Positions 17,390 to 18,760 of a stretch of 64,000 nucleotides of DNA are shown here, in pieces; position 1 is the first letter of the stretch; each line of letters starts with the position of its first letter. This DNA comes from Dictyostelium discoideum (lineage: Eukaryota): assembly GCA_000004695.1 (NCBI GenBank), contig CM000154.2:2592001-2656000 (forward strand), in the 5' to 3' direction. The notes below the pieces were generated by a model. It saw nothing but the letters and a program-made list of their open reading frames with translations. It had not been told where the DNA came from and searched no databases. The position numbers were made by a program, and so were the translations under genes.

Positions 17390-18760
17390 TTAATATTTCT
17401 TCACCCAAGTTTCTTCAGCTCCATCTTTAATGAGTTCATATCCCTCCTCTGCAGTGATTCTAATTCCATCACCTACTTCACGTGCAGTATTGGCGATACC
17501 ATCACCTACATCATGTGCAGTATTGGCGATATCATCACCAATCTCATTGACACCTTCTCTCCATGCTTGATAACCTTGTTGAGCATAATTACGAGCACCG
17601 TTGCCAGCTTTTTGTACACCATTTCTCATGGAATTGTAACCTTCATTAGCATAATTACGTGCACCATTACCAGCTTTTTGTGCACCATTTCTCATGGAAT
17701 TGTAACCTTGATTAGCATAACGAGTAGCTCTGCTACGTATAGAGTTACCAACACCATTAGCAGTACGAGAAATAGAACCACCAGCTCTGGAAGCAACTCC
17801 TGCGGCACCACCCTCAGCACCGGCTGCTGCACCAGCTGCTGCTGCACCGGCGCCAGCAACAATAGCACCCCTGCAATACCAACATCTATAGCAATTAATT
17901 GATCATCCGAAACCTGAAAGTTTGAATGTGGATTTTGATTCTGATTTTGATTTTGATTTTGATTTTGATTTTGATTTGAATTCTTATTTCTTGATGCGAA
18001 AGCATTTGATATTCTTAGGTAGTAGCCTTGCGAATGAAAAGTATAATCCTCTTCAGTTCTATTACAGAAATCACTGCCTTCTATGGCCACTTCACCAGTT
18101 CTGAATGGTATACCCTCTGGAAATATTTGAGATTGATCAGCTTTTAAAGATGATTCGACGAAATGTTTGGTATGTTGATTAGTTTGACCATCCCATACAA
18201 AACCTGGCTCTTTTTCAATATTAAAAGATGGAGCATTGATATCCATATTATAAAAAGATGCAAGGATATCTATCCCATCCCAAACCATTTTCATCAGGGT
18301 AAGCAGTATCAAATTCTGGTTCAAAACCAAGATTGTCCCATGAGTTGAATTGAGTTTTGAATTGGTGGAGTAGAGCTTGTTCAACAGGTGTTACTTGGTT
18401 ACTGGTTCCTTTATCATTCAATCCGGGGAAACGCATATAGCACACAATGAAATCACGTTCAACATGGTTACGTCTACTGTGATCAGCAATTCTGTCCCGA
18501 ACATCAATAGTGGATCTTCCGATATAATATAGTGGAAGCATGTATTCATTACCGTCGATGATTTCATTGGCAGTCGAGAAAATTGCATAGATACCGGCGT
18601 TATTGCATTCAAGTGGACCATATCCACCGTTTTGGTTAATAACACTATTACATGCCCAAATATTATGAGTAGTGGGGTGCAAATCGCCTGGAGGTGGATA
18701 GAATGAAGCAATTGCTTTTTCATACCCTAAAGAAAATTGGATACTACTACAAAAAACCAT
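17390..18760 (-). pseudogene. Composite ORF in three frames: a GIY-YIG-like motif region, an (NQ)n tract, and Gly/Ala-rich 24-aa repeats. It has two frame switches, so it is a probable pseudogene or carries sequencing errors.
   Basis: Frame 1 (18760..18290) contains '...AGIYAIF...YIGRSTIDVRDRIADHSRR'. Frame 2 (18384..about 17880) contains '...NKNSNQNQNQNQNQNQNQNPHSNFQVSDDQ'. Frame 3 (about 17870..17390) contains 'GAIVAGAGAAAAGAAAGAEGG...RYANQGYNSMRNGAQKAGNGARNYANEGYNSMRNGVQKAGNGARNYAQQGYQAWREGVNEIGDDIANTAHDVGDGIANTAREVGDGIRITAEEGYELIKDGAEETWVKKY'. The switches are near 18290 (GLGWD/VWDG) and about 17875. Confidence 0.4.

What the first reader, a model, noticed from the sequence alone, without database searches (positions are those of the whole stretch)
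17390..18760. Three-frame composite ORF combining a GIY-YIG-like motif, a pure (NQ)n tract and LEA-like Gly/Ala 24-residue repeats
One minus-strand stretch reads sensibly only by hopping frames twice. The N-terminal part carries 'GIY...(20 aa)...YIGRSTIDVRDRIADH'. This has the YIG-R-H spacing of GIY-YIG nucleases but an overlong GIY to YIG gap. The middle part has (NQ)9. The C-terminal part has tandem 'GYNSMRNGxQKAGNGARNYAxxGY' and 'IANTAxxVGDGI' repeats. It is either a decayed gene or a real gene obscured by two indel errors. The domain combination is unusual.
Basis: partly seen in the sequence, partly recalled or inferred. Interest (0 to 1): 0.55.

Follow-up and report, generated by a model that had tools for sequence, protein, structure and literature searches.

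The report
Decayed Dictyostelium GIY-YIG-like membrane protein gene
This stretch of the Dictyostelium discoideum genome is a recently broken copy (two frameshifts and probably a lost original start) of a previously undescribed, Dictyostelium-only gene family whose proteins appear to combine a secretion signal, a divergent GIY-YIG nuclease fold, a membrane-like Gly/Ala segment and an 11-residue-repeat tail.

Summary
Window 17390-18760 (minus strand; D. discoideum AX4-type, between cupC and DDB_G0295813) reads as one protein only if the frame is changed twice. Segments 1 and 3 share a frame, so two frames are involved, not three. The repeat units are 22 and 11 residues, and the tract is (NQ)7.

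Comparison with copies from other strains shows the lesions: a 4-nt GATA tandem duplication, a 1-nt deletion, and a ~20-nt deletion that removes the start codon used in strain ACTFIW. A second assembly has the identical 1371 nt, so these are not sequencing errors. That assembly's 418-aa gene model must rest on artificial GC-rich "introns".

The ACTFIW copy has neither frameshift but carries a nonsense codon. Three further D. discoideum-group copies are also disrupted. dN/dS of 0.2-0.45 indicates recent decay.

An intact D. purpureum protein aligns colinearly with all three segments, so this was one gene. The family occurs only in group-4 Dictyostelium and every member is annotated hypothetical.

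The parts
17390..18787 (-). Whole pseudogene: remnant of the ancestral signal-peptide coding sequence (18761-18787), three coding segments and the stop codon (17390-17392)
   Evidence: colinear with the single-frame ACTFIW copy (L002 6001-7545) and with D. purpureum P0020.
18787..18788 (-). Site of a ~20-nt deletion specific to the AX4-type copy. It removes the upstream ATG (L002 has ...AAACGTAGTTAATGATGGCA|AAACTAAAA...). The first remaining ATG is at 18760, leaving only MVFCSSIQFSLG of the signal peptide.
   Evidence: Alignment A1 columns 94-113; L002 translation MAKLKLIIYFVIVFCSS...; hydropathy. Part of the missing segment is also present in L004, so this is a deletion in AX4 by parsimony.
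18272..18760 (-). Segment 1 (frame A, 163 codons): signal-peptide remnant, the conserved FYPPP..HP..W.C..C module, and the GIY-YIG-like core
   Evidence: family alignment A3.
18326..18604 (-). GIY-YIG-like core (residues ~53-145): GIY 56-58, 20-residue hairpin insert, YIG 79-81, R90, H94, IVCYMRFP strand, E127, N139
18267..18274 (-). First frameshift: tandem GATA-GATA where the other copies have a single GATA (TGG GAT|AGAT|ATC CTT), a +4 nt insertion
   Evidence: Alignment A1 columns 629-632; coordinates. P0018 and L002 read GLGWD-ILAS straight through.
18248..18250 (-). Premature stop (TAA) reached in frame A after the 4-nt insertion. It ends the 170-aa ORF ...GLGWDRYPCIFL*
17870..18267 (-). 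Segment 2 (frame B, 133 codons): family-specific middle module (DILASFYNMDI ... EGIPF ... C-N-R-T), the (NQ)7 linker and the start of the Gly/Ala hydrophobic segment. Out of frame in this copy.
   Evidence: dN/dS 0.19 against L002 in this frame. Aligns to P0020 residues 166-254.
17931..17977 (-). (AATCAA)n array encoding (NQ)7. Its length varies between strains (much longer in ACTFIW, shorter and interrupted in ACTFIY).
   Evidence: TRF; alignment A1 columns 920-1046.
17869..17870 (-). Second frameshift: 1-nt deletion (GCAGG-GGTGCT here, GCAGGTGGTGCT in L002 and L004). It returns the reading to frame A.
   Evidence: Alignment A1 column 1112; coordinates. P0019 and L002 read IAIDVGIAGGAIVAGAG in one frame.
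17792..17898 (-). Gly/Ala-rich hydrophobic segment (LIAIDVGIAG|GAIVAGAGAAAAGAAAGAEGGAAGVA), a candidate transmembrane or glycine-zipper helix. The second frameshift splits it.
17393..17869 (-). Segment 3 (frame A, 159 codons): rest of the Gly/Ala segment and the C-terminal tail in 11-residue register
   Evidence: Tail homologous to P0020 residues 308-372.
17571..17720 (-). 66-nt (22-aa) tandem repeat, 2.3 copies (GYNSMRNGxQKAGNGARNYAxx). ACTFIW has one more copy.
   Evidence: TRF score 251, 90% matches; A1 columns 1294-1359.
17466..17539 (-). 33-nt (11-aa) tandem repeat, 2.2 copies (IANTAxxVGDG)
   Evidence: TRF score 127, 92% matches.

Best explanation
Window 17390-18787 (minus strand) is a recently inactivated copy (pseudogene) of a gene from a small, undescribed family restricted to group-4 Dictyostelium.

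SHOWN. The AX4-type copy carries three private lesions compared with copies in other strains: a ~20-nt deletion that removes the ATG which opens the ACTFIW reading frame, a 4-nt GATA tandem duplication, and a 1-nt deletion 398 nt downstream that restores the original frame. Translation from the remaining ATG would stop after 170 residues. All three segments were once one reading frame under purifying selection. The N-terminal core has a GIY-YIG nuclease fold with the motif residues conserved.

INFERRED: architecture. The ancestral protein had a signal peptide; an ectodomain of ~300 residues (a Cys-containing lead-in, a divergent GIY-YIG fold with an enlarged beta-hairpin, and a family-specific module); an NQ linker; one Gly/Ala-rich transmembrane-like helix; and a tail of 11-residue amphipathic repeats.

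INFERRED: function. Intact members are membrane-anchored, lumenal or extracellular metal-dependent nucleases. They would use the GIY Tyr, the Arg and the Glu-bound metal ion as classical GIY-YIG enzymes do, and most plausibly act on foreign (prey or competitor) nucleic acid in the endocytic or secretory pathway. The gene is dispensable in D. discoideum and is being lost through different lesions in different strains.
For: Organism and locus: cupC and DDB_G0295813 match exactly.

Lesions: nucleotide alignment A1, coordinates.

Not a sequencing error: the 1371 nt, and 17.2 kb around them, are 100% identical in GCA_054883475.1, which differs from the window elsewhere.

One ancestral gene: the ACTFIW copy L002 is in one frame from M to ...WVKKY* with a single GAA>TAA change. 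D. purpureum P0020 aligns colinearly at residues 22-168, 166-254 and 308-372.

Past selection: dN/dS 0.22-0.45 between copies, 0.19 in the now out-of-frame middle segment. GC is 33-45% against 21-24% in the flanks.

Intron models rejected: all six GT..AG pairs that give 418 aa are 35-79 nt, 30-69% GC, and delete conserved residues. Homologues read through the same sequence.

Other D. discoideum-group copies are also disrupted: L004 has several stops and indels, L003 is a fragment, and L005/P0025 is frameshifted in the Arg helix.

Family range: 11 proteins at E<=1e-3 among 1.84 billion representatives, all from genus Dictyostelium and all named hypothetical (for P0017-P0019, for P0020-P0027).

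Topology: hydropathy shows an N-terminal signal-like peak in L002, P0020 and P0025 (also in P0021 and P0022) and one internal Gly/Ala peak in L002, P0020, P0023 and P0025. The tail sits in 11-residue register.
Against: No transcript or protein data were available, so 'pseudogene' is inferred from sequence. The surviving 170-codon ORF still holds the whole GIY-YIG-like core and could in principle give a truncated cytosolic product.

GCA_054883475.1 may be the same or a closely related lab lineage. It excludes sequencing error but does not show that the lesions are fixed in the species.

The lesions in the other strains come from newer assemblies whose error rate I cannot judge. Single-base indels there (L004, L005) are weaker evidence than the L002 substitution.

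H94 is not conserved in P0020, P0022 or P0024, so some members may be inactive.

Secretion, membrane topology and nuclease activity are untested. The Gly/Ala segment is only moderately hydrophobic.
Confidence: 0.85

Rival explanations
1. An intact gene hidden by two sequencing or assembly indel errors in the reference.
For: The two frameshifts compensate (+4 and -1 = +3), and the frames before and after are identical. The out-of-frame stretch has no stop in its ancestral frame.
Against: An assembly that differs from the window elsewhere has the identical 1371 nt. The +4 lesion is a clean tetranucleotide duplication, not a homopolymer miscount. The copy has also lost the upstream ATG and most of the signal peptide. 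Other copies in the species group are broken by different lesions.
Confidence: 0.04
2. A functional gene with two very short introns, as modelled in GCA_054883475.1 (418-aa product).
For: A gene caller produced such a model over exactly this span. GT..AG pairs that give 418 aa exist.
Against: The candidate introns are 35-79 nt and 30-69% GC, in a genome whose non-coding DNA here is 21-24% GC. Each removes conserved coding residues (for example the E127/N139 helix, GLGWDILASFYNMDI, or the Gly/Ala segment) that L002, P0018, P0019 and P0020 read through. None of the six enumerated products is in the protein collection. The same caller bridged another frameshift in P0025 with a 37-nt 'intron'.
Confidence: 0.03
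3. The truncated 170-aa ORF is itself the functional unit: a neofunctionalised, signal-less, cytosolic GIY-YIG protein.
For: The ORF keeps the whole core with Y58, Y79, G81, R90, H94, E127 and N139. A naturally signal-less, TM-less branch of the family exists (P0027, P0028).
Against: N-terminal dN/dS between AX4 and L002 is ~0.96 (3 synonymous, 11 non-synonymous changes), which suggests relaxed constraint. The ORF lacks the middle module that packs with the core in the model (single compact unit, pTM 0.83). The sister copy in ACTFIW has a stop inside the core.
Confidence: 0.07
4. Programmed recoding (+1 then -1 ribosomal frameshifting) yields the full-length protein.
For: Only the net compensation of the two shifts.
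Against: Homologues encode the same residues without any shift, so the shifts are derived mutations. A +4 duplication is not a known recoding signal (own knowledge). No conserved slippery site or structure was sought or seen.
Confidence: 0.01

Closest known systems
GIY-YIG (URI) nuclease superfamily: I-TevI, UvrC N-domain, R.Eco29kI, T4 EndoII, SLX1
   Different: Below the Pfam gathering threshold. A 20-residue, rather than ~10-residue, GIY-to-YIG hairpin. Preceded by a signal peptide and a Cys-containing lead-in. Fused to a family-specific ~100-residue module, a Gly/Ala hydrophobic segment and an 11-mer repeat tail. No DNA-binding or repair partner domains. Predicted secretory or membrane location, which to my knowledge is unknown for eukaryotic GIY-YIG proteins.
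Tox-URI1 / Tox-URI2 domains of bacterial polymorphic toxins (Zhang et al. 2012, PMC3482391)
   Same: GIY-YIG/URI nuclease domains exported from the producing cell. The Tox-URI1 signature 'Y, YxG, R, [RK]xxE, N' matches the residues conserved here. Some occur in amoeba-associated intracellular bacteria.
   Different: Those are C-terminal toxin tips of RHS or filamentous bacterial proteins with adjacent immunity genes. Here the domain is N-terminal in a eukaryotic type-I-like membrane protein. No sequence-level link was found (exhaustive HMMER returned only Dictyostelium), and no immunity-like neighbour was examined.
11-residue-repeat amphipathic proteins (group 3 LEA, apolipoproteins, alpha-synuclein, perilipins)
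   Same: The C-terminal ~150 residues fall in a strict 11-residue register, with 22- and 11-residue tandem units. There is a weak ApoO match (E 0.09).
   Different: No significant match to any LEA, apolipoprotein or perilipin family. The composition is Gly/Asn/Ala/Arg-rich. This is an analogy only.
Unitary or polymorphic pseudogenes with compensating frameshifts
   Same: Recent inactivation by small indels, different null lesions in different strains, and residual codon-level conservation.
   Different: Nothing unusual. The main practical point is that automatic annotation turned it into a spliced 'gene' in a new assembly.

Membership tests
GIY-YIG nuclease superfamily | Sequence match to a curated GIY-YIG profile above threshold (Pfam PF01541, gathering score 22.6 bits) | tested here: not met
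   13.3-17.1 bits, E 0.007-0.1 in the four D. discoideum-group copies. No match at E<=1 in eight more distant members. Nothing in NCBIfam or PHROGs.
GIY-YIG nuclease superfamily | Three-stranded sheet with flanking helices (beta-beta-alpha-beta-alpha core) superposable on solved GIY-YIG domains | tested here: met
GIY-YIG nuclease superfamily | Motif residues: Tyr of GIY, Tyr and Gly of YIG, catalytic Arg about 8-11 residues after YIG | tested here: met
   GIY 56-58, Y79-I-G81 and R90 in the window copy. G81 and R90 are near-invariant; the Tyr of YIG is Y or W across the family. hhalign places them on I-TevI Y6, Y17, G19 and R27. R27 is the residue mutated in PDB 1LN0.
GIY-YIG nuclease superfamily | Metal-binding Glu and downstream Asn in helix 2 | tested here: inconclusive
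GIY-YIG nuclease superfamily | Metal-dependent nuclease activity | not testable with these tools
   Needs recombinant protein from an intact member (for example D. purpureum XP_003291147).
Processed or unitary pseudogene (non-functional gene copy) | Disabling lesions relative to intact homologues that are real in the DNA | tested here: met
   +4 nt, -1 nt and a ~20-nt start-region deletion relative to L002 and L004. Identical in a second assembly.
Processed or unitary pseudogene (non-functional gene copy) | No functional product (no full-length transcript or protein) | not testable with these tools
LEA-like / 11-mer amphipathic repeat proteins | Match to a LEA or apolipoprotein family profile | tested here: not met
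   Only ApoO at E 0.09 and DUF6470 at E 0.63. The 11-residue periodicity is present, but that is an analogy.
Bacterial polymorphic-toxin Tox-URI domains | Sequence relationship to Tox-URI1/2 and an adjacent immunity gene | tested here: not met
   No Pfam Tox-URI2 match at E<=10. The exhaustive HMMER search returned no bacterial protein. Immunity genes were not examined.

The most novel reading that the evidence does not exclude
Group-4 Dictyostelium species carry a previously unrecognised family of secretory-pathway, membrane-anchored GIY-YIG nucleases. To my knowledge these would be the first eukaryotic GIY-YIG enzymes placed outside the nucleus, organelles or cytosol. They would act on foreign nucleic acid (prey bacteria, extracellular DNA or competitors). 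The family turns over quickly, and D. discoideum strains are losing it through independent null mutations, as expected for a gene involved in conflict or made redundant.
Probability: 0.3. Interest if true: 0.6.

Novelty: new variant of a known kind. Interest (0 to 1): 0.4.

Why it matters
There are three practical points.

1. Annotation. This locus is a pseudogene, but a new D. discoideum assembly models it as a spliced 418-aa gene. A paralogue (P0025) has likewise been 'repaired' with a 37-nt intron. Such models contaminate protein databases.

2. Classification. About a dozen 'hypothetical' Dictyostelium proteins can now be assigned a fold (GIY-YIG) and an architecture (signal peptide, nuclease-like ectodomain, Gly/Ala helix, 11-mer repeat tail). 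The fold was detectable only through a family-based structure model.

3. Biology, if the intact members are active. They would be an unusual extracellular or lumenal use of a nuclease fold otherwise known in eukaryotes from DNA repair, homing endonucleases and retroelements. The strain-specific null alleles would make a natural knock-out series for testing its role in feeding or in conflict between strains.

Tried and rejected
- Word-indexed search with the full repaired composite found nothing. It was probably swamped by NQ and Gly/Ala words, because the N-terminal segment alone did find relatives.
- Exact look-ups of the ORF fragments and of six enumerated 418-aa intron models: none is deposited. 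I could not identify the splice model actually used in GCA_054883475.1.
I used an alignment of exact window translations plus returned proteins instead.
- AlphaFold on segment 1 with a 5-row MSA gave pLDDT 37 and was unusable.
- PDB sequence searches with the single sequence and with the family profile found nothing relevant.
- Foldseek against PDB and BFVD found nothing significant. The afdb50 library was unavailable.
- NCBIfam and PHROGs gave nothing.
- No second family copy was found in the 64-kb window.
- The literature search found no paper on the family or its accessions. One GIY-YIG 'secreted' hit was about mitochondrial homing endonucleases and was irrelevant.

Rejected readings: three neighbouring genes, real short introns, sequencing error, and programmed frameshifting (see rival explanations).

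Full report
**Where we are.** The window is Dictyostelium discoideum nuclear DNA (23% GC). The 769-aa ORF at 20450-22759(-) is exactly calcium up-regulated protein C (cupC, XP_636312). The ORF at 15950-16345(-) is exactly DDB_G0295813 of strain AX4. The finding lies between these two genes. This is a eukaryote, so introns had to be considered as well as frameshifts.

**The observation.** On the minus strand there are three long open stretches: 18760-18248 (170 codons from an ATG), 18384-17692 (230 codons) and a stretch running to the stop at 17390. Segments 1 and 3 are in the same frame and only the middle one is offset. The reading therefore hops twice but uses two frames, not three.

GIY and YIG are separated by exactly 20 residues. 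Three corrections come from Tandem Repeats Finder. The NQ tract is (NQ)7. The long repeat is 66 nt = 22 aa (2.3 copies, 17571-17720). The short repeat is 33 nt = 11 aa (2.2 copies, 17466-17539).

Chance does not explain this. With a per-codon stop probability of about 0.09, open runs of 133-163 codons have P of about 1e-6 to 1e-7. GC is 33-45% in the segments against 21-24% in the flanks.

**Not a sequencing error, not introns.** cupC also sits on a 5.29-Mb contig of a different assembly, GCA_054883475.1 (L001). That assembly differs from the window in a repeat about 9 kb away and at one other indel. It is 100% identical over 17.2 kb including all 1371 nt of the finding.

There the stretch is called as a 418-aa gene, which implies 114 nt of introns. 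I enumerated all pairs of GT..AG introns that give 418 aa. All six solutions use 'introns' of 35-79 nt with 30-69% GC, unlike this genome's AT-rich non-coding DNA. Each deletes residues that homologues conserve. None of the six products is deposited, so the exact model remains unknown. Any such model has to be an artefact of bridging frameshifts.

**What the lesions are.** A search with segment 1 alone found three short gene calls in other Dictyostelium assemblies. I fetched their loci.

- *L002* (strain 'ACTFIW', GCA_054859355.1) is the key copy. From ATG (MAKLKLIIYFVIVFCSS...) to ...WVKKY* it stays in one frame and aligns with the repaired window protein end to end. It has a single in-frame stop where the window has Glu (GAA>TAA).
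- The nucleotide alignment (A1; coordinates) shows three lesions in the AX4-type copy. First, GATA-GATA at 18267-18274 where the others have one GATA (+4 nt). Second, one base missing between 17870 and 17869 (GCAGG-GGTGCT against GCAGGTGGTGCT). Third, about 20 nt missing at 18787/18788, which in L002 contain the ATG.
- +4 and -1 sum to +3, which explains why segments 1 and 3 share a frame.
- *L004* (D. cf. discoideum) has several stops and indels and a truncated 3' end. *L003* (a second ACTFIW copy) is only a fragment of the core.
- *L002* shares downstream synteny with the window (the DDB_G0295813 homologue, 75% aa identity) but not upstream.

**Evidence of past function.** dN/dS between copies is 0.22-0.45. 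In the middle segment, read in L002's frame, AX4 against L002 gives 0.19. So the offset frame is the real ancestral frame and the gene was constrained until recently. The N-terminal part of AX4 against L002 gives ~0.96, but this rests on only 14 changes. That fits neutral drift since both copies broke.

**One gene, and a family.** The exhaustive HMMER search used a profile built from exact window translations plus the returned proteins (A2). It found 11 proteins at E<=1e-3 among 1.84 billion representatives. All are from genus Dictyostelium and all are named 'hypothetical' (for P0017-P0019, for P0020-P0027): D. purpureum (3), D. dimigraforme (2), D. firmibasis (1), D. cf. discoideum (2, P0019 and P0024) and D. 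discoideum (3, P0017, P0018 and P0025). A later word-indexed search added two more D. cf. discoideum members, P0028 and P0029.

The 374-aa D. purpureum protein P0020 (XP_003291147) is deposited as an uninterrupted protein. It aligns colinearly with all three window segments at residues 22-168, 166-254 and 308-372. The 'unusual domain combination' is therefore an ancestral architecture, not a run of neighbouring genes.

It is itself frameshifted inside the Arg helix and was bridged by a 37-nt fake intron. No other copy lies in the window. I could not search the whole AX4 genome.

**Architecture.** Hydropathy shows an N-terminal signal-peptide-like segment in L002, P0020, P0021, P0022 and P0025, and one internal Gly/Ala-rich hydrophobic segment in L002, P0020, P0023 and P0025. 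The tail falls into a strict 11-residue register over 14 rows, and the 22- and 11-aa tandem units are part of it.

Conserved cysteines and a recurrent C-x(0-2)-N-x-T sequon after the middle module fit a lumenal or extracellular ectodomain; this is inference. The AX4 copy keeps only MVFCSSIQFSLG of the signal peptide. A signal-less, TM-less sub-branch also exists (P0027, P0028).

**Is it GIY-YIG?**

- *Sequence profiles say 'almost'.* PF01541 matches profile positions 2-35 in all four D. discoideum-group copies, but at E 0.007-0.1, below the gathering score. There are faint GIY_YIG_2 and MUG113 matches. The distant members give nothing, and the family profile hits no PDB sequence.
- *Conservation points to the motif residues.* The family alignment (A3) has as its invariant or near-invariant columns G81, R90, E127 and N139, together with F61, C107, M109, L130, L131 and F134.
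- *Profile-profile comparison.* I compared A3 with a small canonical alignment of I-TevI and three UvrC domains. The I-TevI and two of the UvrC sequences were verified against the sequences printed for PDB entries. The E. coli UvrC row is from memory; it matches 1YD6 at E 7e-24. The comparison gives a pairwise P of 0.012 and places GIY, YIG, R90 and H94 on I-TevI Y6, Y17/G19, R27 and H31.
- *Negative results.* Foldseek found nothing significant in PDB or BFVD, although several of the best weak viral matches are again GIY-YIG endonucleases.

I conclude that the fold assignment is sound. The family is too divergent for current sequence models, and catalytic competence is plausible but untested. 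H94 is replaced in three members.

**Mechanism.** Shown: a single ancestral ORF; three private lesions in the AX4-type copy; a different lesion in ACTFIW; decay in the other copies; a GIY-YIG fold with the motif residues conserved.

Inferred: intact members are type-I-like membrane proteins that present a metal-dependent GIY-YIG nuclease domain to the lumen or outside. In D. discoideum the gene has become dispensable and is being lost. In AX4, translation from the remaining ATG would end after 170 residues at TAA 18248-18250.

The closest functional precedent for exported GIY-YIG domains is the Tox-URI toxin tips of bacterial polymorphic toxins, whose signature is 'Y, YxG, R, [RK]xxE, N' (PMC3482391). 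I found no sequence link to them.

**Verdict.** As a pseudogene it is ordinary. Its modest interest lies in the undescribed, lineage-restricted GIY-YIG family it reveals, the unusual predicted location of that fold, and the demonstration that new assemblies annotate the pseudogene as a spliced gene.

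Noticed in passing
L001 14000-15370; L005 4001-5465: Gene callers in two new D. discoideum assemblies bridged frameshifts with implausibly short, GC-rich 'introns': a 418-aa model of this locus, and the 475-aa P0025 with a 37-nt intron inside the Arg helix. Pseudogenes were thereby turned into deposited proteins.
   Followed up: partly
window ~27712-27811: The window has 100 nt here where GCA_054883475.1 has 48 nt. This is a repeat-length difference inside the 1370-aa gene upstream of cupC. 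One further single indel lies beyond it. These are the only differences between the two assemblies over 22 kb.
   Followed up: no
window 20444-20802 vs 24280-24637: The 3' end of cupC is 85% identical to the 3' end of the neighbouring 1370-aa gene, so the two look like tandem cup-family paralogues.
   Followed up: no
L004 6645-12543: In D. cf. discoideum the decayed copy is truncated at its 3' end. It is followed by Met_synt_B12-like fragments and an LTR-retroelement (RVT_1, RNase H, integrase), which suggests disruption by insertion or rearrangement.
   Followed up: no
window 15950-16757 (-): DDB_G0295813 is a 131-aa single-exon protein in AX4. GCA_054883475.1 models it as 198 aa in two exons by adding the upstream ORF 16428-16757. 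One of the two models is probably incomplete.
   Followed up: no
window 19703-19887: A long trinucleotide-type tract that reads as poly-Q, poly-T or poly-L depending on frame and strand. This is typical Dictyostelium low-complexity sequence in the intergenic region or a small ORF upstream of the pseudogene.
   Followed up: no
P0027 (D. dimigraforme), P0028/P0029 (D. cf. discoideum): A sub-branch of the family lacks both the signal peptide and the Gly/Ala segment but keeps G(I/V)Y...YIG...R..H...E...N. It may be a cytosolic version of the same nuclease-like domain. P0029 looks partly degraded.
   Followed up: partly
L002 vs window, NQ tract and 22-aa repeats: The (NQ)n array is far longer in ACTFIW than the (NQ)7 in AX4, and the 22-aa repeat has one extra copy in ACTFIW. 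Both repeats vary in length between strains.
   Followed up: partly
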